A stretch of DNA of 64,000 nucleotides, from NCBI GenBank assembly GCA_000002445.1, contig CP000067.1, forward strand, positions 160,001 to 224,000, given 5' to 3'. Made by a program: the position numbers and the translations under genes. The notes under the pieces were generated by a model that was not told the DNA's origin, did no database searches, and saw only the letters and a program-made list of their open reading frames with translations. The DNA is from Trypanosoma brucei (lineage: Eukaryota). The stretch's first letter is position 1. Each line of letters starts with the position of its first letter. Of this stretch, positions 9,130-64,000 are shown one piece after another.

Positions 9130-11586
9130 TTATCGCCACAGTTGTCTCACACCTTTACGCATGGCAAAGTAGCGTGCCACAAGGGAAAGGACACCAAAGC
9201 TGCATGTAAGAGCTATCAGCAGAGTCTTGTTGAAATCACTGTTAAGGAGGTCAAACTCCTTTCCAGAAGAGGTGCGCACGTAAAAGAGGTCCATACCTGA
9301 AACGAGTACATGGCAGGAGCTTTCAAGATTTGTTGGTCGCGTTGCAATTAGAGTGGGACGTGCCGCTCGATACCTGTGGGTAACTATAGCAGTGCTCGGA
9401 ATGATCACATGTGTTAACTGCCCGGCGCCGTCACCTAAGGAAACCTGCCCACCAGCAAGTAGACGGTTAAGCCCCACGGAGGCAACCCTCCCGGACGTAA
9501 ACACAAACAGAAGACTTTTTCGTGCGATGGCGCCGAAGGACGTCGTGACGCTCATTTTGGCAACCCCACCGCCGTGCATACCGAGCACAGATCCTACCAC
9601 AACAGGTGGCCATGTAGCACGGGAACTGAATACGCGCTTGTGCCGGGAGAAAAACGATGAGATCACCTGAGGTGGTGTGGCACCCGTATCCTTGAAAAGT
9701 ACTGGGCCAACCTCGGTTTCAAACATCTCCCACACGCCAAGGGAATGGCGCATCTTTTCCACATCCATAAAGTGGTAAAGCACAGCGTGCTCCACAATGA
9801 GGATATGCACCGGTCCTTCTACATTTCGATGACGCATGGACGCAAGAACGCTTCCTGTGACAACATCGACAGCTGTTACAACAAGAGTTGGCATCTCGTC
9901 GTCAACGGGCTCGTAGTACGCCACTGCGAGGACGTTGCGCGTTGGAAACTTGCGACGTACCTCCTCCATACCACTGCTTTTATTCGGAAACACACGAATA
10001 TTATTCACCAATGAAGTGCGGAGTGCATCCTCACCCGTAGCAACGGCAATAATGGGAAATGGCAGTTGCACGGTCCAGAGTGGCGTCACAGACGGAGATG
10101 ATGAGGCTAGATAACCCTTGATGGTTCCCGTTGTCATATTCAAACTGAATACGTGCAACTTGGAATGGGGGATTTTTCCGTTCACCGCAAGCGAACGCTT
10201 GACGTCAAATGTAGGTGCAACAATCAGTGAGTCTTCGTGCTTTGTTGCCTCTACCACAGCACCGGTGACGACATTTAAAATTACCCGAATCTTAACCACA
10301 CCAAAAGAAGCGAATAAAGTAGCAGTATCCGCTCCGGATACCTCTAATTTTTCGAACGCTATATTCTCCACGGAAGCGGCGGTTGTCATCTCCAGCACAG
10401 TTTTAGATACATCGACAAGCACCTTCATGTTACTTCCCATTTCTGCCAGAGGAATCATATATACTACGCCACGTGTAGAAATTCCCAAGGCTTCTTTTGA
10501 CAAACCAAACCGATCTTCCTTCGATGAACTGTCAAGTACAACTACCGCCGCGAGTCTTGAAAGGCCTTCCCACCGTTCCCACTTCACCCCTCCGTTCTCT
10601 CGCACCACAACAAGATGGTCATTGGGTGCGCGAACGAGAGCCCATGCGCCGTCTCCATCGCCCTGCACAGCAAGAAGTATAGCGGGAGCACCTTTTGTCC
10701 CGCCCTTTAAAGGAACGTGAATACTCTTAGCAGGGAACTTAACCATGAAACCGTTGGGATCCGCCTGGCCGATTACGTATCCCTGAAACACGCCAGCCGG
10801 GTTTGTCATAACCGACGCAGCACAACCACTACAGTCAATTACTTCCTGTTCCACAGCGCCGTTTGTCTCGCGTTGAGGGCCATGTCTTACAAGTGTTACC
10901 TTGTGTGAAGAATATGCAACTGCCTCGGCCGAAGAGGTAACGTCAATACCACCCACAGCATCAACGCCTGTAATTTCGACCGCACCCTTAAGGGAGTAGC
11001 GATCGGCAGATAACCGTCGCACCACCCAAAGGTGAGCGTCGCTAAGGCGTAGGCCCTTCACGTCCTCCCCAATGGGAAATTGACCGAGAGTCTTAACTTC
11101 TTCGTCATCAGAATTCATATCTAACTCGAAGATATGTGCGTTTTTACCGTCGAAGGCGGCAAATCTCGCCTTACTATTTGTGATGCTTTTACACGACTCC
11201 ACGTCTGCGCCGGCTGGCAAGAGCAATTTGAAAGTGGTTTCTACTGCTCCAGTCCCTGCGTTAAGAACGTGCACTGCTCCTGACCGGGAGGAGACAAAGA
11301 CAGAGCCGCCAGTTACTCCAATGCACACACGTGGTTCGCTAAAAACTTTCCTCCACAGTAACTCTCCGCTGTCAAGGGAAAGTGCGGCAACCGCCCCCTG
11401 AGCAGACCTTATGTACACGTTGTTAAGTTTCAGCTTAGGATGCAGTGCGGCGCCCTCCACCTGGCCGACAAAGCGCAAAATCCAGTCACGTAACCCCTGC
11501 TCATCTTCATGTATGGCTTGGATTGGAACAATGAGTCCACAAATGAGGCACAACTTGAGCAACAGAAAGTATAAAGTGGGCCGCAT
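9130..11586 (-). CDS. EMC1: ER membrane protein complex subunit 1 (EMC1).
   Basis: ATG at 11586. It has an N-terminal signal peptide (MRPTLYFLLLKLCLICGLIVPIQA). The N-terminal motif HEDEQGLRDW...FVGQV and VAALSLDSGELLWRKV matches human EMC1 YEDQVGKFDW...YVGKV / IAALNSRTGEILWRHV. The C-terminal YVRTSSGKEFDLLNSDFNKTLLIALTCSFGVLSLVARYFAMRKGVRQLWR matches the EMC1 C-terminus ([49 protein letters not shown]) with a single TM. Confidence 0.85.
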   Translation of the reverse strand: MRPTLYFLLLKLCLICGLIVPIQAIHEDEQGLRDWILRFVGQVEGAALHPKLKLNNVYIRSAQGAVAALSLDSGELLWRKVFSEPRVCIGVTGGSVFVSSRSGAVHVLNAGTGAVETTFKLLLPAGADVESCKSITNSKARFAAFDGKNAHIFELDMNSDDEEVKTLGQFPIGEDVKGLRLSDAHLWVVRRLSADRYSLKGAVEITGVDAVGGIDVTSSAEAVAYSSHKVTLVRHGPQRETNGAVEQEVIDCSGCAASVMTNPAGVFQGYVIGQADPNGFMVKFPAKSIHVPLKGGTKGAPAILLAVQGDGDGAWALVRAPNDHLVVVRENGGVKWERWEGLSRLAAVVVLDSSSKEDRFGLSKEALGISTRGVVYMIPLAEMGSNMKVLVDVSKTVLEMTTAASVENIAFEKLEVSGADTATLFASFGVVKIRVILNVVTGAVVEATKHEDSLIVAPTFDVKRSLAVNGKIPHSKLHVFSLNMTTGTIKGYLASSSPSVTPLWTVQLPFPIIAVATGEDALRTSLVNNIRVFPNKSSGMEEVRRKFPTRNVLAVAYYEPVDDEMPTLVVTAVDVVTGSVLASMRHRNVEGPVHILIVEHAVLYHFMDVEKMRHSLGVWEMFETEVGPVLFKDTGATPPQVISSFFSRHKRVFSSRATWPPVVVGSVLGMHGGGVAKMSVTTSFGAIARKSLLFVFTSGRVASVGLNRLLAGGQVSLGDGAGQLTHVIIPSTAIVTHRYRAARPTLIATRPTNLESSCHVLVSGMDLFYVRTSSGKEFDLLNSDFNKTLLIALTCSFGVLSLVARYFAMRKGVRQLWR

Positions 11587-52179: not shown

Positions 52180-55100
52180 TTACGACAAACTGAAGTTCCT
52201 TCTGCCCTCGGTGATTGCTACCAAAAGACGTTCCTTCATTATTTTTCGTGTTGAGTACGGGGGAAGCTTAAAATAGAGAAAACAAGTGTTGCACGATGGC
52301 AGCGTCTGCTCGCCACGACCCTCCAACTCCTTCCGGACAACAGTTATTTTCCTCCCAAGCCCATCCAAGCCATTCAGGGGAAGCTGAGGGCATCCTGTTA
52401 GAAACTCAATAAAAAGTTGTTGCTGTTCACGAGTAAACTCATCACCGACAAGAGAAATGAACGTTTCGACCTCCTGAGAACCAGTGGAGTAGCCATGTGC
52501 CTCCATGACAGCAGCACGCAGCGCCTCTTCACTAAAAAGTTTCTCCTCGGAGTCCTCCGCAGAGAAGCCACAAATAATTGCACTCATTTCATCATCTGTG
52601 AAAAACCAAAAGGCGTCAAGATCCACAACACTTGCAAGACCACGCGCAAACCAGTGGAGATTCGAAACAGCATTAGTCAGGCGCCTCTCTACACACTTTT
52701 CCACATAAAACTTAGCCGTTGAAACGGTCAGCGCCTCACCAGTTTCCTCGTCCTCAAGGCCCATTTGTTCAAGTTCGGCATCCGTCGCTTGGAGAACGCA
52801 CTTGTAGGAATTCGCCAGGGCCGGTTCGACCTCCTCCAAGAGATGCCACAACACCTCCACTGAAGGAGTTTGTGAGCGGATAAGCGGCCACACGACCGGC
52901 AAAAGACTAATATCCATCGTATAGCCATCAGCGAAGGCCCGACCACAGCTAGCACCGAGAACAAAGAACCTCTTGGGATGAACCTGCTGCATGCTGGGAA
53001 AGGCGATGCACACACCATCATCCCGGTGGTGCCATAGTTCCGACATGCTGCGATACCGACGTGACAGCTCGGCATACAACTCCTGTGTTGGACCTTCTCC
53101 TGTGCCCTCCTCGCCCTCAAAATTAAACTCCACTTTGTTACGCAACGTGGGATATTCCAGAAAAACTTTGTACAACGTGTTCGTAATGCTTTCAGTATTC
53201 CTCTTCACCGTTACCTTAAACGCAAGACCATTACTAGCTATGCTTCCAGTAACAGTTCCCCGTACATTCACACCGACATCTTGCAAGTGGTAGAGGCCAA
53301 ACCTGCAGCATCCAACGGCAAGAAAGTGAGCCATGTTACGCTTGAACGCAAGCGAAATATATGGAGCCACCTCCTGAAGTATAAGAACCACTCGTGATGG
53401 AATACCAGAAACCCCGCTTAGGAAAATGTCTTCACCGCGCGACTCGAGGGCATTTACGATGGAAAGTTCAACAGCGGTGTCAACCCACCGCTGAGGTCGC
53501 GTGGCGAGGAAAGTGTGCAAGAACACACGTAATGATGAGTGTTCAGCAATATTGTGAGCCGCTGAGCATGCGACAAACGGAGGACAAGGGATGCAGCAAC
53601 GACACTCACCGCCTACTGGGGCTATGTGTACATCATTTCCTTCAAGCAACGATACAGGTCGGCTAGCGGGTACAACACCACTCGAAGTAAAAAGCATCAC
53701 TTCACCGGCATTCCCGCTGCAACCACTTTTTCTTTTTTGAGAAGAAGTGCTACTGGTGGAAGGCGATCTTTTCAACTTTAACGCCTTCCAGGATTGTATG
53801 ACATCCCCAACGACTGCCGAGGAATTTGTCTCCATGCGAGAAAGCTTCTCGTCTACACAGTTACTACATAAGTCATAATTACAGTCTCTGCATGCAAGGG
53901 ATCCAAATGCATTCGCGAAAGCACAAGAATCACATCTCCAGTTAACACTAAAGTGTACACGAAGAGCATGTCCATTGGGACACCGCGGAGCGCCCTTCCC
54001 CTTAATTCGATCACCTGCACTGCAGATGTTTACTGTATAAGAAGTGCTGCGCACTCTCTCCGCAAGGTCCTCACCCACGGGTTTGCACGATGCCGTATGA
54101 TGAAGCACACGCAACACATATGTTTGTGCGACAGTTCTCATCCGTGAAGCCAGTACATCATCTTTTTTCATTTCTTCACACAAAGCCATCATCTGCTCCT
54201 CACCATACGGCGACTTCTCCAACCCTTGGACAAACGCCAACAATTCTGAGGAGGAGGTTGTACGCAAGAACGCCAGCACATTACCAGGGGACCGTTGAAC
54301 CTCCCGCAGACAGTCGGCGCCACGCTTTACCTCTGAAGTTGAGCTTTCAATCCTGTTCTTTTTACCTCCATCTCGGGCCAAACACTCGGCGGCCGGCGTG
54401 TCAGCAACCCCGGCTTCCTGCAGTACACTTGCCCATCTTTTATCTCGTTTCAGCAGTGTAGCGCATATTTCGCCAACTGTAGGCTCCTTCTGATCAGCTG
54501 GTAGACTGCAGAAAGCGGTAATGACGTCCATCGTGTTCGTGGGGTCGCCACTGCATATGATATAAAACCGTATGGAACGCGCCAAAGAGGCCACCTGCGT
54601 GTGTCCGAATGACAAGGGACGTAACGCATCTTGCACAGCAGCGCAAACCTTTTTCTTAAGCATCATACCTCGTGTCGGAATAGCTAGTCCCCCATCAAAT
54701 GATATGGCACACGGTATGGGTTGGAAATGCACCCTTGAGGCTGTGTCGCCGTGTGCAAAGTTGTCCGTCATGGTTTGCAAATCAATCACGTGACGACCCG
54801 GGGCAACAATCCTTGACCGCTCAGCGGAGAAGTACATTGTCGTCAACCGTCGTCTGACTTTTTTAATGTACAAATGGTACTCATCGTCTCTACCACGCCA
54901 TGCCCATATATATTCACTCTGAAAGTTAAAATTTGCACCACACAACTTCGCCAACAGCACCAGGGCACTCCACAACAGCGATGGCACGACCCATCGTAAG
55001 TTCGGCAAGGTCGGTGTGCTGTCGATCCACGGTTGCTCAGCATTAACCGCCACAGAGTCACTGCCGCTATTAAACGGATTGGAAAAACTCGCGCTGCGCA

Positions 55101-56040
55101 CTTCACTCCGCAGCAAGAGTTGCGCTAACCACAACATTGCCGATTCGCACGCTTCTCTGGGAAGTAAGTGAGTTTCAATCACACTAGCCAGGCACGCCAG
55201 TGTGAGTTGGACACGCGAACTCGCCGTCCCGCTACCTGCGATCCGCTCACCAATCTGAAGTAAAGTTACCATCATATTCCTAAGAGAAGTTATATGAGTG
55301 GATGATGATGATGCACCCCCTTCTTCCGACCCGCGGCGATGTTTTCCTCCTTGTCGGTCTGGGGACAAAACACGCGGGGCGCACCACGCCCGATACGTTA
55401 AAATGCCCTCCACAACTGTGCGGAGGAGTTCGTCCCATTCGTGGTCAATGTCCAAGTGAAATAAAGCCATCAGGTGGTGATGCACCAACTGTTCCAGTGC
55501 CCTGCAATCCGTAGCACTCTTCAGTTCCTTCTGTCGCATCAATCCGATGGAATGATGGAGAACTTTACACGAAGTACGCTTGGAGCCATCCACAGCAGCA
55601 AGACAAAACTGGATCTGTTCCTCTGTGGATGGCACTACAACAGCAAGTTCACAACACTTGCTAGAAAGGGATAAACACTGCAGTACCTCCTCCTTCAACT
55701 CGCCCTCCGATGACTTCTCAAAGTGCAGTGACTCTCTTTTTTGCATGTCCACCATGGAAACCACAGTGGAAAAACATTTCCTGAAAGTATCCAATCCATT
55801 TCTCGTATCCAGAGAAAATAAAGAGCCTGAAAGCCTATCAAGTATAATAACAATCGCACGAGCAGCCATTACCATCACATCACCACTGCTGCTGCCTTTT
55901 GTCAATGCCATATCAATGGCCCTGATGAGTGGCTGCAATGGAACATCTGTCGAGTCTCCTGCAATAATAAGAAGCGTGCAAAGATCTGAAAGCAGGTCAT
56001 ATGGGGCCCGCGATGGCGTGACATCAAGGGATAGAAACAT
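52180..56040 (-). CDS. HECT-domain E3 ubiquitin ligase with an internal ZZ-like zinc finger.
   Basis: ATG at 56040. C-terminal HECT C-lobe: ...TLPSCNTCFLYFKLPPYSTRKIMKERLLVAITEGRRNF (compare E6AP [37 protein letters not shown]; the catalytic Cys is in SCNTC). Cys/His cluster: CPNGHALRVHFSVNWRCDSCAFANAFGSLACRDCNYDLCSNCV. Confidence 0.85.
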   Translation of the reverse strand: MFLSLDVTPSRAPYDLLSDLCTLLIIAGDSTDVPLQPLIRAIDMALTKGSSSGDVMVMAARAIVIILDRLSGSLFSLDTRNGLDTFRKCFSTVVSMVDMQKRESLHFEKSSEGELKEEVLQCLSLSSKCCELAVVVPSTEEQIQFCLAAVDGSKRTSCKVLHHSIGLMRQKELKSATDCRALEQLVHHHLMALFHLDIDHEWDELLRTVVEGILTYRAWCAPRVLSPDRQGGKHRRGSEEGGASSSSTHITSLRNMMVTLLQIGERIAGSGTASSRVQLTLACLASVIETHLLPREACESAMLWLAQLLLRSEVRSASFSNPFNSGSDSVAVNAEQPWIDSTPTLPNLRWVVPSLLWSALVLLAKLCGANFNFQSEYIWAWRGRDDEYHLYIKKVRRRLTTMYFSAERSRIVAPGRHVIDLQTMTDNFAHGDTASRVHFQPIPCAISFDGGLAIPTRGMMLKKKVCAAVQDALRPLSFGHTQVASLARSIRFYIICSGDPTNTMDVITAFCSLPADQKEPTVGEICATLLKRDKRWASVLQEAGVADTPAAECLARDGGKKNRIESSTSEVKRGADCLREVQRSPGNVLAFLRTTSSSELLAFVQGLEKSPYGEEQMMALCEEMKKDDVLASRMRTVAQTYVLRVLHHTASCKPVGEDLAERVRSTSYTVNICSAGDRIKGKGAPRCPNGHALRVHFSVNWRCDSCAFANAFGSLACRDCNYDLCSNCVDEKLSRMETNSSAVVGDVIQSWKALKLKRSPSTSSTSSQKRKSGCSGNAGEVMLFTSSGVVPASRPVSLLEGNDVHIAPVGGECRCCIPCPPFVACSAAHNIAEHSSLRVFLHTFLATRPQRWVDTAVELSIVNALESRGEDIFLSGVSGIPSRVVLILQEVAPYISLAFKRNMAHFLAVGCCRFGLYHLQDVGVNVRGTVTGSIASNGLAFKVTVKRNTESITNTLYKVFLEYPTLRNKVEFNFEGEEGTGEGPTQELYAELSRRYRSMSELWHHRDDGVCIAFPSMQQVHPKRFFVLGASCGRAFADGYTMDISLLPVVWPLIRSQTPSVEVLWHLLEEVEPALANSYKCVLQATDAELEQMGLEDEETGEALTVSTAKFYVEKCVERRLTNAVSNLHWFARGLASVVDLDAFWFFTDDEMSAIICGFSAEDSEEKLFSEEALRAAVMEAHGYSTGSQEVETFISLVGDEFTREQQQLFIEFLTGCPQLPLNGLDGLGRKITVVRKELEGRGEQTLPSCNTCFLYFKLPPYSTRKIMKERLLVAITEGRRNFSLS

Positions 56041-56444
56041 ATGGAACGAGATATACTCGTCAATGATTAATTCCCCACCCTCAACCTTGCTTTTCGACTT
56101 CTTTAGCTTCTTCTTATTTTAAAAAAAAATAAAAAAACTTCCCCTCCCTTATGTTCGAGATCTTACTTAAGAGGAGACACAACACCTCACACTATTGCCT
56201 GGAGTCACTTAAATTATTTTTATTTTTGAAAAAAAAAAGGAGAAAAAAAAGGTCAGTGCAGTCGATGTGTTCACTCGTCCAAAAATTAAAAGAAGAATCA
56301 GTGATAAGAGAGGGGGGAAAAGAAGGGAAAATACATCTGGAAGGGAAAATGGAGCAGCAGACGATGTAAAACTTCCTCAGCACTACACGCCACAGCATCC
56401 CCAACAAGAAGAATCCAACATTAGAAACAATAGGGAGGAGGAAA

Positions 56445-56464
56445 ACACACACACACACACACAC
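56445..56464. repeat. (AC)10 microsatellite. An (AAT)n/(ATC)n run follows at about 56540-56582.
   Basis: acacacacacacacacacac; then aataatagtaataataataataataataatcatcatcatcat. Confidence 0.9.
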
Positions 56465-56684
56465 AATCCACTCTGCAGCAAACCATTCATTGATAACACA
56501 ACGTTATCACTTCCACACGCATAAAATACACACCAAACAGTAATAATAGTAATAATAATAATAATAATAATCATCATCATCATACAAACCAAACAAAACC
56601 ATATCAAATCAAAAAAAGTTTTTTTGTTTCAGCAACCTCCAATCACCCTCAATCCAAATCCGCAGTCGCTTGCATAAACCCCCG

Positions 56685-56942
56685 TCAGTTATGCGTAAAT
56701 ATTTTCCAACCGAGCCAACTGAAATATGCGGCAACAACAATTACCGGTGGCACAAGAGGAGGAATGAGCGCACGATACCACATCGGGTCCATCACTGAGC
56801 GCTCACTTCGTTCAATAGGGCGATTAAGACATTCCCACATGCATAAAACAAACCATAAGACGCCCGCCCATGCGGTTATCAATGAGGGCCAACCAAGTAA
56901 AAAGCACTTTAGTGGTTGATTCCTGTAGTCCAGGGCATACAT
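56685..56942 (-). CDS. Small 85-aa two-TM membrane protein, a DPM2/PIG-P-family-like candidate; it sits in what would otherwise be a 2-kb inter-CDS gap.
   Basis: Track ORF 56685..56972 starts at GTG; the first ATG is at 56942, giving MYALDYRNQPLKCFLLGWPSLITAWAGVLWFVLCMWECLNRPIERSERSVMDPMWYRALIPPLVPPVIVVAAYFSWLGWKIFTHN. There are two hydrophobic helices and a loop motif P.WYRA.IPPL resembling DPM2 (YFLPRAYAVAIPL) / PIG-P (YWPQKYWAVALPV). It is on the same strand as all neighbours. Immediately upstream on the sense strand there is a polyY tract followed by AG dinucleotides (revcomp of 56975-57045: ...cccttgtcatcttcatcccctccttttttattttattttattttatttctcccgtttctcgtattAGtgctgttAGttacggatcttacaaattgtATG). 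Confidence 0.55.
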   Translation of the reverse strand: MYALDYRNQPLKCFLLGWPSLITAWAGVLWFVLCMWECLNRPIERSERSVMDPMWYRALIPPLVPPVIVVAAYFSWLGWKIFTHN

Positions 56943-56974
56943 ACAATTTGTAAGATCCGTAACTAACAGCACTA

Positions 56975-57045
56975 ATACGAGAAACGGGAGAAATAAAATA
57001 AAATAAAATAAAAAGGAGGGGATGAAGATGACAAGGGAAACAAGT
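56975..57045 (-). promoter_or_regulatory. Sense-strand polypyrimidine tract plus downstream AG acceptors, immediately 5' of the small 85-aa ORF.
   Basis: Revcomp reads cccttgtcatcttcatcccctccttttttattttattttattttatttctcccgtttctcgtatt followed by AG...AG within about 35 nt of the ATG at 56942. Confidence 0.45.
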
Positions 57046-58134
57046 CACTCCAAGTACTCGACCACTACCTGATCCGCTTTTTTTTCTTCTTTTGTCGTTT
57101 CTTATTTACGTTCTATCTGCAGTATCTATTTTATGGTGTTTTCCTTTTTTAAGAAAATAATATGTTACCTATGTGAGAGAAATAAATAAACTGAAAAAAA
57201 GTTACTCCAGCTTCAACGTCGCCGCAACTCGTTCTGGTGAACGAGACACTGCTTGCCGCAACTACCAGAAGCAACACATAACATATATATGGAGGAGGAA
57301 AATGTTTTTTTTTTCAAAAAAAAGGACCAATTTCCCGCACGCAACAAAAAAAAAAACAAAGAGAAAAGAAGGAGGAAAATTCGGGGACAAGCAAAAAACA
57401 GGTTCTGCAAACAGTCAAACATTCGGGAAATAGAGAAGAACAAAAAAAGGAAACCGCATGAAAGATGTGAGGGTAGTAATGATTTTCTTTTTTTTTTTTT
57501 GCAAAGCAAAAAAAAAGAGACGCACCCCACCAAAACAAAAGAAAAAAGAAAATGAAATCCACCGCGCAGTAGCAAGGGCCCTCGTCCAGTTTTTATAGCC
57601 ATCAATCACAACGCCACACCAAAGAAAAACTCGACATTTATGCGAAATTCGCCACCCCATTTACTTGCAAACACCTGTGCACGCATGCAAAAATGTTTAG
57701 ATATATAAACAAAAGTTTATCCGAACCTCAACGTATTTGTGTAAATAGATATGAGCACGAAGGTATTTGTGTCTATGAACTGGTTTGTTCCGTCTAGCGT
57801 AAAGCACACATGTAGAAAATTAAGCAAAAATCGGTTACCGCCCAATATCTCGAACCCACAATCCCCCACCTGATAACGAAAGGCTAAAAAGAAAAAAAAA
57901 ACACACACACACACGCAGAAATATCACCAACCCACGCAACACTAGGAACGAAACCAAAAAGAAAAAAGAAAATAGGGGTGTAATAAACGTGAGGCGAACA
58001 GACGTACGTAACCGTAATTCTTTTTGTTTGTTTTTCTTGCTATTGCTATTGTTTGTCTTCTCTCTTCCCTTTTTAATGTTTCTATTCGTGAAAAAAAAAA
58101 ATAGAATATATTTCCTTCTCACCTTTCTATTGTT

Positions 58135-58797
58135 TTAAAATAACTGGGCTCGCCTTGATGGCTTACTCACTTTACTAAACAATGGGGTGTAAGCCCCTGG
58201 ACCCGGCGTCACGCCATCTATTATATCATTCCAGCGATATGGCGTGTTGTCGCGGCGCCCAGAGCGCTGTGAAGGCGCAACGTTTTTGTTCCTAATCATC
58301 AATTCCATTTCTGTACCGAGAAAATAAATTCCGTTGCACTCTGGAGGTGGAATGAAGCGCCGCTCACGAGTGAAGGTTCTGGCACGCGGGTTATCTTCCA
58401 TCAGGAAACTTCCCATCACCAGTGAGCTGTCACGGCTCCAACTGCGGCGCATGCTCTCTTTCATTTCCAAATATGGAGTTCTCTGTGCAGTCTGCTGTCG
58501 TTCCTTTTCATTGGGAATTCGAATACTGTGATCAGAAATGGGAGGCCGCGGTGGTCGCAAGGGGAGTGTTCGTTGCGATGGTTGCGAGTGCCGACGCCTA
58601 TTTTGCGTAGGACCCCGCAATGAACGTGGGCGAGAAGAACTTTGATCGGAAGCGCCGAGGATTCTCCTCCGCTGCTCTTCCAGCTCTTCACGGCGCTGCT
58701 TTAAATCATTCAACTTCTTTTGTATATCCGAAAGCTGCTTGGCGGTGTCTGCTCCAACAAAGGAATCACCATCTGAATTAGGAGATATGTTCGCCAT
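58135..58797 (-). CDS. Hypothetical protein with an N-terminal coiled coil and an Arg/Ser-rich tail.
   Basis: Track start is GTG; the first ATG is at 58797 (MANISPNSDGDSFVGADTAKQLSDIQKKLNDLKQRREELEEQRRRILG...). Confidence 0.55.
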   Translation of the reverse strand: MANISPNSDGDSFVGADTAKQLSDIQKKLNDLKQRREELEEQRRRILGASDQSSSRPRSLRGPTQNRRRHSQPSQRTLPLRPPRPPISDHSIRIPNEKERQQTAQRTPYLEMKESMRRSWSRDSSLVMGSFLMEDNPRARTFTRERRFIPPPECNGIYFLGTEMELMIRNKNVAPSQRSGRRDNTPYRWNDIIDGVTPGPGAYTPLFSKVSKPSRRAQLF

Positions 58798-59001
58798 CAG
58801 ATTAGTCACGTAACCTTCTTTTTCCCCTCCCTGCTCCCTTGTCTATTCGTTCCGCAACACTTTCGTAACTGCACGGCTTCGGTACGTCTCACTTTATTAA
58901 TTCCACCAAGCAAAAACACGCGTTGGGGATCCGTAACACACCGATCCCTCAACCCTAGCGACTAAACGCAAGAAACCCAAAAAAAAAATAATGTGTGTAC
59001 A

Positions 59002-60372: not shown

Positions 60373-63300
60373 CTACCAGAACGGTGCCCAACCAGTTATA
60401 TATGCCTCAGCAAGATTATCAAGACTTGTTGCTTCTTCAATAAGACGGTCGACTTGACTCGCTACGTTCTGCAAGTTTTCCTGATTATTAACTGTTCGGA
60501 ATGATGACCATGAAGGAAGCGCTCTGCCATCTGTCATATACACATCCCTGGACGACTCAGCAAGGCCCTGCGACCACCAGGAGAAGGGATCGTTTGGATC
60601 TTCAGAAACCTCCCGTCGAGACGGCTGCCCCGCAACCACGTGGCATCCATCGGCAAAATCTTCACCCGTCAGCTTCGCACGGACGCGGGCCAAAGCCAAG
60701 TCCCCTTGCGTGTTACGAGTTTCTTCCTCACCAGTCTGTTCTAATGTCGTTCCAGGTGCCTGCTCACGAACTTTCAAAACTGACCGCGAAAGCTGCATCG
60801 GAGGGCCATCGATGAGGCCATCTGGTTCAGCAAATGGGCTCGCTTCACCGCCTGCCACGGGGGCCTCCAATAGCGAGGCGGAATTCTCCCCTTCGGCAAC
60901 GGTCGTCAGACGCCAGTTGATGAGCGGATCGTAAATGAATGCTTCAAGAATTGAAAGGAGGTTCTCCGAGTGCCGCCGGAGGATTTTCATTACCAGTTCA
61001 CATGTCAAGCGAAAAACGCCGTCAACACCAGTGATACCCAAAGCAGGAACAAGCAAACGAGTTAATCGAAACGGCACCGCCTCGGAATACAACGAACGGT
61101 GCATAGCCACTTCAAAGCAATCACCAAAGTCAATGTGGACGACAGATCCCTTATCCTGAAGCATTAAATTATTGAGATGCCTGTCTCCCAACCCTAATAC
61201 ATATCCCACAATCGACATTATGGCCAACGTGTGGCCGTAAGTCCCCCTGTACTGCAACCAATGTTCGCACGTATCATTTTTGTCCCAAATAATACGCCGC
61301 AGTTCATCATCAGGGGTGCTGGCCATAACGTGACTTAGTAGCTGCTTCCTCTCCTGTTTGTTCCGATGATGATACTCTGTGATGTTGACTAACTTTCCCT
61401 TTTCCACTATCATGCTCACCTCTTTATAGATGGAAATATTGTGATCCTTCCGCCACCGCTCTAGCATCTTGTATATCGTTTCAGTGTTCTCCACCCACCC
61501 GATAATACCCACGTTATCGGTTAATGGAATGACAGCGTACTGGGGAATGATTAAGCCCATTGCGTTCGATAAGCTGTCCGAAGAGAATATGGTATTGATC
61601 AACTCAATAAACTGCATGACACGCTCATCCTGACGTAAATCTTCGTGTCCTTTCAGAAGAAACCGATATTTACTCCCATCTGAACCGTCTACACCGAAGC
61701 GCCGAGGCCGCTGCTTAGACGGCATAACATAAACACGAGAATGAAACTTCTGAATCGTAATGAGTTGCTGACCTAACACAAACGTACCAGGGACCGGGAC
61801 ATTGCTTTTGTTTATCTTTACAAGCGTGGGGGACAAATCATCCATCTGAAGCCGTCGTTCTCCGACTGCTTTGTGCAGTTCGCAGTAAACCTGCTTCAAG
61901 AGGACCCATGCCTCCTGCGATTCCCCTTTCTGTAGCGCTGCCCAGGCACGCCGCAGGGTTGAACCGTGAACTTTCACAAAATGCTGTTCATTGGGTGTCG
62001 ACTCCTTCTTCATCTCCTCGTAGAGGGGACGCAGGATGTTGCGGATTTCTGACACATTTTCTGGCTTCCCAGCTGCCAGTTGAATACAGTTGTGCCATTT
62101 TTCGGTCCATAAGATAGCAATTCGAACCATTTCGTTGCTGATTAGTGAAGCCTCCTCCACCATAGGGCCATTGGTGACCCGAATACCCTTAAGCACACGC
62201 TCAGCCGCCTGCCGCCGCATGACCTCGGGTGATTTCTCTGTCACAGTAAGTGGATATAGGAGAGCATGTGGGAAGTTGCTGCCGATACTCACAAGCAGAT
62301 CCGTGAGAATAGACCTTGCCTTGGCTCCCGTAATGCCTATACGCGCAACCAGTTGTGGAATAACGTTCAGCCACACGTAGCACGGGACACTTTTGATGCC
62401 CTCCTGAATTGCTTCGTTGACCTCATTCACAGTGCTGTGCGAAAACCAAATTGAGAGAATGCGAAGCACATCTTCCATCACACCATTGCTCTCCCTCCGA
62501 GACAGAGCCACGGCCTTGAACAACGCGGTAATTGACTCGATGTGATGCTTCGTTTGAGTCTCTTGCGATGTATTGGGATCACGGGACAAGTCGTAGTGTA
62601 AAATTCCAAGGGAGTGAAATGCAGCACAGTTTTCTGGACAAAGTTGCGTTGCAGTCCTCAGTGTCTCAATTGCCTTAGTTCCGCAATCAGGGAAGAGTTG
62701 AACCGTCCACTCACCGAGCAACAACCAACAGCACCCCCACGCCTCGGCACGGTTACTAGTTGCAGTTAACTGTACATTATTAAGTATATCGGAGAGTAAG
62801 GTGTAAGTCTCCTGCTTCCCTCTGGTGACATAACAGTGCTTCATGTACACATGAATTACATCAGGGTCTAAATTGGCCAACCGTGTGTTTAAGCCGTTAG
62901 GGTGAAGTAAAGTGCTTAGCGTATGGTCAGCTAGTGACGTCCAGTGATGCTTAGTTAAAGCACGCACGCAAACGACCTGCGATGGCAAATCTTCCTGGGG
63001 TGAAAGCACCAATGAATTAATGGTGATGAGTGTCTTTATATGCGCTGGTCGAGAGGACATGAGGGTGACGCGTTTATGCCACAATTCCCTTAACATCTTT
63101 CGCCGTTCACTTCCTGATTTTACAAATGACACAAGCTCCTCAAAGTGTCGCACGTGCTGTAGCTCCACCAGTGTATCGTAAGAGCGATTGTAGCTTTCTG
63201 TGAACGACTCGAAGAATGAATCAAAAAGTGACTTTCTATGCTCATCTACATAATCCAGAAGCTCTCCGTAATGTTTCTGCCGGAAGAGGGAAGCACAACG

Positions 63301-64000
63301 CTCAACCATATCTAAGCGTTCCATCACACCAGGCTGCCCAACAACTTCATCAAACTCATCCCACCTACCCAACCAGAGAGCAGCTTTGGCCTTGAGTGGA
63401 GCCACCTCAAGTTGCGCATCTCTGTCCAGTAACTCCCAGTTTGTCGCGATGAGCTCCTGCATGGTGATGGTCTCACCCAGAGCATCGTAACATCGTAGAG
63501 CACCCAGGAACGCCGAAGTGTCGAGGGTACCATCTGCAACATTCATTCGAGACTTGTAGCGAGAGAGTGCTTCACCCCACCAATTTAACTGCTCCAGAGC
63601 TCCAACCTCATCGAACCCAAACTGCTCTGGAGCGATAATATTGCTGGAGAACTTCTCCGACATCTTCTTAACGAGACCCTTCGCGACCATTGTAAGCCCC
63701 AAGTGGTTGTAGAACTCGATCAGGCGCTCCGCCACCTCTAATGCGTGCCGCACTGCAGCATTCTGCCGATCAGAAACCTGACCACTCAGTTCGCTCAGAA
63801 GTTGAGCAAAGAGGATCTCATTCAAGAATATGGCTCTGGCGTACATCTTAGAATTCAAAGCCACACGTGCTAACACATCAATATCCATCAAGCAGTCGAA
63901 GGAAAGTCCTCGCTTCCCTCCATTGGGGCATTCCAATGTTAACTCAATCCGGTTAAGCCCCTTAACAGCACCAACAACCTCGTGAGTTGTAACTAATCTC
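60373..64000 (-). CDS. TOR: TOR (target of rapamycin) PIKK-family kinase, C-terminal ~1200 aa (FAT, FRB, kinase, FATC). Partial: the N-terminus lies beyond the right edge of the window.
   Basis: The reading frame is open to the window edge (no stop in 63937-63999; the track M at 63936 is a TTG). Kinase catalytic/activation loops: [94 protein letters not shown] (compare mTOR [49 protein letters not shown]...VLEAFVYDPLLNW). FRB-like: [17 protein letters not shown].... [11 protein letters not shown] aligns with mTOR RVRDKLTGRDF. The C-terminal FATC reads ...[23 protein letters not shown]. Confidence 0.9.
   Translation of the reverse strand, partial: [1208 protein letters not shown]

What the first reader, a model, noticed from the sequence alone, without database searches (positions are those of the whole stretch)
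56685..57045. Unannotated small two-TM ORF (DPM2/PIG-P-like) with a textbook trans-splice context inside a 2-kb 'gap'
Between the HECT ligase (start 56040) and the next gene (stop 58135) lies an 85-aa minus-strand ORF starting with ATG at 56942. It encodes two hydrophobic helices and a loop motif (DPMWYRALIPPLVPP) resembling the DPM2/PIG-P family of tiny ER glycosyltransferase regulatory subunits. Directly 5' on the sense strand is a long polypyrimidine tract followed by AG dinucleotides about 20-35 nt before the ATG, which is the signature of a genuine SL-trans-spliced kinetoplastid gene. Small ORFs like this are routinely missed by length-thresholded annotation.
Basis: partly seen in the sequence, partly recalled or inferred. 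Interest (0 to 1): 0.55.

Follow-up and report, generated by a model that had tools for sequence, protein, structure and literature searches.

The report
Known trypanosome GPI-anchor subunit TbERI1/PIG-Y
The small ORF is a real gene, but it is already annotated and published: Tb927.4.780 (TbERI1), the PIG-Y/Eri1 subunit of the enzyme complex that starts GPI-anchor synthesis in Trypanosoma brucei.

Summary
The 85-codon minus-strand ORF (ATG 56942, stop 56685-56687) is there as described. It has two hydrophobic helices. A pyrimidine tract upstream is followed by AG dinucleotides that would give 29- and 20-nt leaders.

It is not unannotated. [quoted passage not shown] Its length and mass (85 aa, 10.089 kDa) match Tb927.4.780 = TbERI1. 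TbERI1 was detected by mass spectrometry in a TbGPI3 pull-down (Ji et al. 2021, PMC7971885).

It is not DPM2 or PIG-P. Pfam gives only PIG-Y (PF15159, E 1.5e-11, 45.4 bits, cutoff 25). Profile comparison gives 92.8% probability to human PIGY, against 0.2% for DPM2 and 0.7% for PIGP.

Synteny (PIG-Y, HECT, adaptin) holds in T. vivax and Phytomonas.

The gene is trans-spliced. However, the published predominant acceptor (Kolev et al. 2010, Table S12) is at window 57261, giving a 319-nt AUG-free 5'UTR. It is not the site next to the ATG, which can at most be a minor one.

Verdict: a real, ordinary, already known gene. Low interest.

The parts
56685..56942 (-). Coding sequence of Tb927.4.780 / TbERI1 (PIG-Y/Eri1 homologue). 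85 codons plus the TGA stop at 56685-56687.
   Evidence: ORF and translation. Pfam PIG-Y, 45.4 bits, E 1.5e-11. Identical GenBank proteins. The 85 aa and 10.089 kDa equal the Tb927.4.780 entry in S2 of PMC7971885.
56826..56915 (-). Codons 10-39: first predicted transmembrane helix.
   Evidence: AF2 helix H10-39. Hydropathy peak at residues 13-39.
56787..56825 (-). Codons 40-52: short polar loop (NRPIERSERSVMD) with near-invariant P42 and D52.
   Evidence: AF2 loop at residues 40-52. Conservation in alignment A1.
56691..56786 (-). Codons 53-84: second predicted transmembrane helix, ending in the family's C-terminal signature WxGWKFFxHN (here WLGWKIFTHN).
   Evidence: AF2 helix H53-84. Invariant G78, W79, F82 and N85. 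This stretch aligns to the C-terminus of human PIGY.
56943..57261 (-). 5'UTR of the predominant mRNA: 319 nt with no AUG.
   Evidence: Kolev et al. 2010 Table S12 gives predominant SAS chr4:217261 and 5'UTR 319. Window offset of +160000 is inferred from two genes. There are zero ATGs against a shuffle mean of 6.0, P(0)=0.0025.
57262..57263 (-). AG dinucleotide of the predominant spliced-leader acceptor site.
   Evidence: AG lies exactly 5' of the published SAS coordinate. The same holds for the neighbouring HECT gene, with AG at 56208-56209.
57264..57402 (-). Pyrimidine-rich region upstream of the predominant acceptor (T/C runs such as CCTCCTTCTTTTCTCTTTGTTTTTTTTTTT).
   Evidence: Sequence. 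Its role as the polypyrimidine tract of that acceptor is inferred.
56975..57045 (-). It lies inside the predominant 5'UTR.
   Evidence: 80-90% pyrimidine in 20-nt windows.
56963..56973 (-). Two proximal AG dinucleotides (56973-56972 and 56964-56963). They are candidate minor or alternative acceptors giving 29- or 20-nt leaders.
   Evidence: Use is not demonstrated. The published averaged 5'UTR (300.3) is shorter than the predominant one (319), so some minor site or sites downstream exist, but their position is unknown.

Best explanation
The ORF is Tb927.4.780 (TbERI1), the Trypanosoma brucei orthologue of mammalian PIG-Y and yeast Eri1.

It encodes an 85-residue two-helix membrane hairpin. [quoted passage not shown]

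Shown by sequence or literature:
- The gene lies in a minus-strand polycistron.
- It is trans-spliced, predominantly 319 nt upstream of its ATG.
- Its protein co-purifies with the catalytic subunit TbGPI3.

Inferred from the mammalian system:
- The hairpin packs against the catalytic PIG-A/GPI3 subunit, together with PIG-P/GPI19.
- It holds that subunit in a productive orientation on the cytoplasmic face of the ER, and so supports GlcNAc-PI synthesis.
For: - Pfam PIG-Y PF15159: E 1.5e-11, 45.4 bits against a cutoff of 25, covering profile positions 1-69 of 69.
- The identical protein is in GenBank, named PI-GlcNAc-transferase subunit Y.
- Computed 85 aa and 10,088.95 Da match Tb927.4.780 in S2 of PMC7971885: 85 aa, 10.089 kDa, 2 peptides, 18.8% coverage, enriched in the TbGPI3-3Myc pull-down.
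- The only tryptic peptide pairs that give 18.8% coverage both include the N-terminal peptide from M1 or Y2.
- Fifteen further homologues (34-52% identity over the matched stretch), which include T. vivax, Strigomonas and Phytomonas proteins, all hit PIG-Y. They share invariant G78, W79, F82 and N85.
- hhalign to human PIGY: 92.8% probability, E 4e-7.
- Synteny is conserved: TOR-like/~220-aa gene/PIG-Y/HECT/adaptin in T. vivax, and PIG-Y/HECT/adaptin in Phytomonas.
- The AF2 model is a two-helix hairpin, pLDDT 89.7.
- A mapped SAS exists, and the 5'UTR is AUG-free.
- AlphaFold3 modelling of the human complex places PIGY, PIGP and DPM2 as V-shaped two-TM hairpins contacting PIGA. In that model PIGY and PIGP are needed for PIGA orientation (PMC12182360).
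Against: - I found no genetic or biochemical loss-of-function test of TbERI1 itself. Its role in the trypanosome complex rests on homology plus one pull-down.
- The authors of that pull-down note it lacks stoichiometry, topology and orthogonal confirmation.
- No solved structure contains a PIG-Y-family chain, so the proposed contact with GPI3 is model-based.
They were validated only by their own Pfam hits.
Confidence: 0.96

Rival explanations
1. The ORF is a DPM2- or PIG-P-family protein. It would be a regulatory subunit of Dol-P-Man synthase or the GPI19 subunit of GPI-GnT.
For: It has the same size class and the same two-TM hairpin architecture. All three small proteins sit together in the mammalian complex.
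Against: - There is no PF07297 or PF08510 hit at E<=10.
- hhalign probabilities are 0.2% and 0.7%, against 92.8% for PIGY.
- T. brucei already has distinct GPI19 (Tb927.10.10110) and 'DPM2' (Tb927.9.6440) genes.
- T. brucei's Dol-P-Man synthase is single-chain.
Confidence: 0.02
2. The proximal polypyrimidine tract and the AGs 20-29 nt before the ATG are the main spliced-leader acceptor of this gene.
For: The sequence context is textbook: 80-90% pyrimidine, followed by the first AG after 75 AG-free nucleotides. The averaged 5'UTR (300.3 nt) is shorter than the predominant one (319 nt), so minor downstream sites exist. About 6% use of a 29-nt-leader site would reproduce the numbers, by my arithmetic.
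Against: Kolev et al. 2010 Table S12 lists the predominant SAS at chr4:217261, which is window 57261, with a 319-nt 5'UTR. An AG sits exactly there. The 319-nt leader lacks any AUG (P=0.0025), which fits selection on the long leader as the functional mRNA.
Confidence: 0.07
3. The ORF is a chance open frame in an intergenic region and is not expressed as protein.
For: It is short, and ORFs of 70-130 codons are common on both strands of this T-rich spacer.
Against: It has a Pfam hit above the curated cutoff, conserved syntenic orthologues across Trypanosomatidae, and mass-spectrometric peptides.
Confidence: 0.01

Closest known systems
Mammalian PIG-Y (PIGY) and yeast Eri1, Pfam PF15159
   Same: - Small size: 85 aa here, 71 aa for human PIGY.
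- Two-TM helical hairpin.
- C-terminal signature ...W(L/M)G(W/I)K(I/L)F(T/R)HN at the very C-terminus.
- Membership of the GPI-GnT complex together with PIG-A/GPI3.
- Passes the Pfam model over its full length.
   Different: - It has about 16 extra N-terminal residues, conserved among trypanosomatids (xDYRxxP...FLLGWP).
- Only TM2 aligns confidently with human PIGY.
- There is no direct functional test in T. brucei.
- In yeast, Eri1 is reported to link the complex to Ras2 (my knowledge). Nothing suggests that here.
PIG-P / Gpi19 (PF08510) and DPM2 (PF07297)
   Same: They are small two-TM 'V-shaped' hairpin subunits that contact PIG-A in the mammalian GPI-GnT model. They have a similar loop followed by a proline-rich start to TM2.
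   Different: There is no significant sequence or profile similarity. T. brucei has separate genes for them, and TbDPM2 was not found in the TbGPI3 pull-down.

Membership tests
PIG-Y / Eri1 (PF15159) | Sequence match to the family HMM above the curated gathering score | tested here: met
   45.4 bits against a cutoff of 25, E 1.5e-11, covering profile positions 1-69 of 69. All 16 homologues hit the same family.
PIG-Y / Eri1 (PF15159) | Very small protein made of two transmembrane helices joined by a short loop | tested here: met
   85 aa. Hydropathy peaks at residues 21-39 and 59-77. AF2 helices at residues 10-39 and 53-84, pLDDT 89.7.
PIG-Y / Eri1 (PF15159) | Conserved extreme C-terminal motif (GWKFF-HN type), shared with human PIGY | tested here: met
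   Invariant G78, W79, F82 and N85 in alignment A1. hhalign to human PIGY gives 92.8% probability, E 4e-7, aligned to the C-terminus. The human sequence was recalled from memory and validated by Pfam.
PIG-Y / Eri1 (PF15159) | Physical association with the catalytic subunit PIG-A/GPI3 in the GPI-GnT complex | not testable with these tools
   Reported in the literature. Tb927.4.780 is enriched in TbGPI3-3Myc pull-downs: listed as rank 7 in Table 1 and as 8 in the S2 file row, with 2 peptides (PMC7971885).
PIG-Y / Eri1 (PF15159) | Required for GlcNAc-PI synthesis activity | not tested
   No loss-of-function study of TbERI1 was found in full-text searches. The requirement in human cells is known from Murakami et al. 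2005. That paper is not held in the library, so this is cited from my knowledge and from reference lists.
DPM2 (PF07297) | Match to the DPM2 HMM or profile | tested here: not met
   No hit at E<=10. hhalign probability 0.2%. The positive control, human DPM2, scores 108 bits.
PIG-P / Gpi19 (PF08510) | Match to the PIG-P HMM or profile | tested here: not met
   No hit at E<=10. hhalign probability 0.7%. The positive control, human PIGP, scores 149 bits. T. brucei GPI19 is a different gene, Tb927.10.10110.
SL-trans-spliced kinetoplastid mRNA | Experimentally mapped spliced-leader acceptor upstream of the CDS | not testable with these tools
   From the literature: Kolev et al. 2010 Table S12 gives predominant SAS 217261, 5'UTR 319 nt, averaged 300.3. 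An AG is confirmed at window 57263-57262.

The most novel reading that the evidence does not exclude
The proximal polypyrimidine/AG signal at 56963-57045 could be a genuine alternative acceptor. It would produce a short-leader (20-29 nt) isoform of the TbERI1 mRNA. The choice between the 319-nt and the short leader might be stage-regulated, tuning the level of a limiting GPI-GnT subunit. The published averaged 5'UTR shows that some minor downstream site exists, but nothing places it here or shows regulation.
Probability: 0.2. Interest if true: 0.15.

Novelty: already known. Interest (0 to 1): 0.06.

Why it matters
GPI-anchor synthesis is essential for bloodstream T. brucei, because the VSG coat is GPI-anchored, and GPI-GnT is a validated pathway of interest. 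This subunit was already annotated, named and detected in the purified complex.

The value of this check is corrective in three ways:
- The gene is not missing from annotation.
- The family is PIG-Y/Eri1, not DPM2 or PIG-P.
- A 'textbook' pyrimidine-AG context next to an ATG is not a reliable predictor of the predominant trans-splice site.

Tried and rejected
- The word-indexed protein search returned only the query's own cluster. Distant relatives needed the exhaustive HMMER scan.
- PDB searches found no PIG-Y-family chain. I tried the protein, the family profile and human PIGY. The only hits were chance TM matches to HMA4 and a designed protein. There is therefore no experimental structure to compare with, and I did not run fold search, because a two-helix hairpin gives non-specific matches.
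- Supplements of Nilsson 2010, Jensen 2014 and Vasquez 2014 held no entry for Tb927.4.780, and their files are truncated. Siegel 2010 has no supplements held. I therefore could not retrieve per-site SL counts or ribosome footprints.
- Murakami et al. 2005 (PMC1266422) is not held.
- Rfam found nothing in the whole window, so there is no hidden RNA gene in the 'gap'.
- megablast of the window against the T. vivax locus (file L004.fa; no file for L005 was available) gave no DNA-level hits. Conservation is visible only at protein level.
Phytomonas, Strigomonas and Trypanosoma already bracket that clade (my knowledge of trypanosomatid phylogeny).

Full report
**Observation**

On the minus strand an ATG at 56942 opens an 85-codon frame that ends with TGA at 56685-56687. 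The mechanical ORF list extends it to a GTG at 56972 (95 aa), but that is not a eukaryotic start. The protein is MYALDYRNQPLKCFLLGWPSLITAWAGVLWFVLCMWECLNRPIERSERSVMDPMWYRALIPPLVPPVIVVAAYFSWLGWKIFTHN.

- Hydropathy shows two maxima of about 1.8, at residues 21-39 and 59-77, separated by a polar loop.
- An AlphaFold2 model built on a 16-sequence alignment gives two long helices, residues 10-39 and 53-84, at mean pLDDT 89.7.
- Upstream on the sense strand, about 56975-57045 is 80-90% pyrimidine.
- The first AGs after a 75-nt AG-free stretch are at 56973-56972 and 56964-56963. They would leave leaders of 29 and 20 nt.

**Identity**

Pfam gives a single hit: PIG-Y (PF15159), E 1.5e-11, 45.4 bits against a curated cutoff of 25, covering the whole 69-position profile. 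There is no DPM2 or PIG-P hit even at E<=10.

The identical 85-aa sequence is already in GenBank as AAZ10669.1, CBH10352.1, RHW72927.1 and SCU65389.1. [quoted passage not shown] A gene is called at this position, between a 220-aa gene and the HECT ligase, in three public Trypanozoon assemblies.

Ji, Tinti and Ferguson (PLoS One 2021, PMC7971885) list TbERI1 = Tb927.4.780 as the PIGY/ERI1 homologue. Their S2 file gives 85 aa, 10.089 kDa, 2 peptides and 18.8% coverage, enriched in TbGPI3-3Myc pull-downs. I computed 85 aa and 10,088.95 Da for the window ORF.

Only two tryptic peptide pairs can give exactly 18.8% coverage: MYALDYR + SVMDPMWYR, or YALDYRNQPLK + IFTHN. Both contain the N-terminal peptide. 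This supports the ATG at 56942 as the start, by inference. A second paper repeats the assignment (PMC8358704).

**Which genome**

Kolev et al. 2010 (PMC2936537, Table S12) give the following values:

| Gene | Predominant splice acceptor | 5'UTR | Implied ATG (chr4) | ATG in window |
|---|---|---|---|---|
| Tb927.4.770 (HECT) | 216207 | 167 nt | 216040 | 56040 |
| Tb927.4.780 | 217261 | 319 nt | 216942 | 56942 |

Both genes give an offset of exactly 160000. An AG lies immediately 5' of both translated coordinates, at 56209-56208 and 57263-57262. I infer that the window is T. brucei TREU927 chromosome 4, 160001-224000. All ORFs of 200 aa or more except one (a 200-aa TTG frame at 10118-10720, inside the 818-aa minus-strand ORF) are on the minus strand, which fits one polycistron.

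**Trans-splicing**

The gene is trans-spliced, but the predominant acceptor is at window 57261. It is served by the T/C-rich region at about 57264-57402 and gives a 319-nt leader.

The published averaged 5'UTR (300.3 nt) is shorter than the predominant one. Some reads therefore use downstream sites. About 6% use of the 29-nt site would reproduce the numbers, but so would many other mixtures. The proximal site is unproven, and at best minor.

The 319-nt leader contains no ATG. Mononucleotide shuffles average 6.0 ATGs, with P(0)=0.0025. The annotated ATG is therefore the first AUG of the predominant mRNA.

**Conservation**

An exhaustive HMMER scan found 15 further full-length relatives at E<1e-4, with 34-52% identity over the matched stretch. 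Those carrying names are from T. vivax, Strigomonas culicis and two Phytomonas isolates. All hit PIG-Y.

The alignment has invariant G78, W79, F82 and N85, near-invariant P42, D52 and F81, and a conserved N-terminal xDYRxxP...FLLGWP.

Synteny is preserved:
- T. vivax: TOR-like kinase / 235-aa gene / PIG-Y / HECT / adaptin.
- Phytomonas EM1: PIG-Y / HECT / adaptin.

DNA-level similarity to the T. vivax locus is undetectable by megablast, so the protein is under constraint.

| Comparison with the kinetoplastid profile (hhalign) | Probability | E-value |
|---|---|---|
| Human PIGY (aligned over TM2 and the C-terminal ...GxKxFxHN) | 92.8% | 4e-7 |
| Human DPM2 | 0.2% | 0.33 |
| Human PIGP | 0.7% | 0.08 |

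T. brucei has separate GPI19 and 'DPM2' genes, and DPM2 was absent from the pull-down. A 2025 AlphaFold3 model of the human complex describes PIGP, PIGY and DPM2 as V-shaped two-TM hairpins contacting PIGA, with PIGP and PIGY needed for PIGA orientation (PMC12182360).

**Mechanism**

Shown:
- The gene exists, is conserved and is spliced.
- Its product co-purifies with TbGPI3.

Inferred:
- The hairpin sits in the ER membrane within GPI-GnT.

I found no loss-of-function data for TbERI1, and no PIG-Y-family chain in the PDB.

**Verdict**

This is a real but ordinary and already known gene. The complex and architecture are right, and the gene is real. The family, the 'unannotated' status and the main splice site are wrong. 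Nothing else is in the 'gap': there are no Rfam matches, only microsatellites and ordinary UTRs.

Noticed in passing
window 56943-57261 (-): The 319-nt predominant 5'UTR of Tb927.4.780 contains no ATG at all. Shuffles average 6.0, with P(0)=0.0025. This suggests selection against upstream AUGs in this long leader.
   Followed up: partly
L002 6360-6749 (T. b. gambiense DAL972), corresponding to roughly window 56190-56610: The gambiense annotation calls a 129-aa gene with no Pfam hit between PIG-Y and HECT. The other two assemblies do not call it. The region in the window is microsatellite-rich and low-complexity, with (AC)10 at 56445-56465 and (TAA)10 at 56541-56571. The call is probably spurious.
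   Followed up: no
L004 8001-8315 (T. vivax): The T. vivax orthologue has no ATG at the position equivalent to T. brucei M1 (GVVYSPDYR...). It starts 20 codons further upstream, so the N-terminal extension is variable while the xDYRxxP motif is kept.
   Followed up: partly
window 52180-56040 (-): The neighbouring 1286-aa HECT ligase (Tb927.4.770) has only weak extra matches: WWE (E 0.028) and a C1-like zinc finger (E 0.25). Its mapped splice acceptor (window 56207, 167-nt UTR) has an AG exactly at 56209-56208.
   Followed up: partly
window 58135-58809 (-): The upstream roughly 220-aa gene (presumably Tb927.4.790) has no significant Pfam domain, only a sub-threshold coiled-coil match. It has no entry in the part of Kolev Table S12 that is held. 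It is syntenic in T. vivax, where it is 235 aa.
   Followed up: no
window 1-64000: Every ORF of 200 aa or more, except a 200-aa TTG frame at 10118-10720 nested in a longer minus-strand ORF, is on the minus strand, so the window is a single directional gene cluster. No Rfam family reaches its gathering score anywhere in the window.
   Followed up: partly
window 60373-63936 (-), L002 1-2588, L004 1-5558: The large ORF running towards the window end corresponds to the TOR-like kinase with a weak PDZ hit. From memory this is TbTOR-like 1, Tb927.4.800. Kolev lists a SAS for Tb927.4.800 at 228387-228407, outside the window.
   Followed up: no
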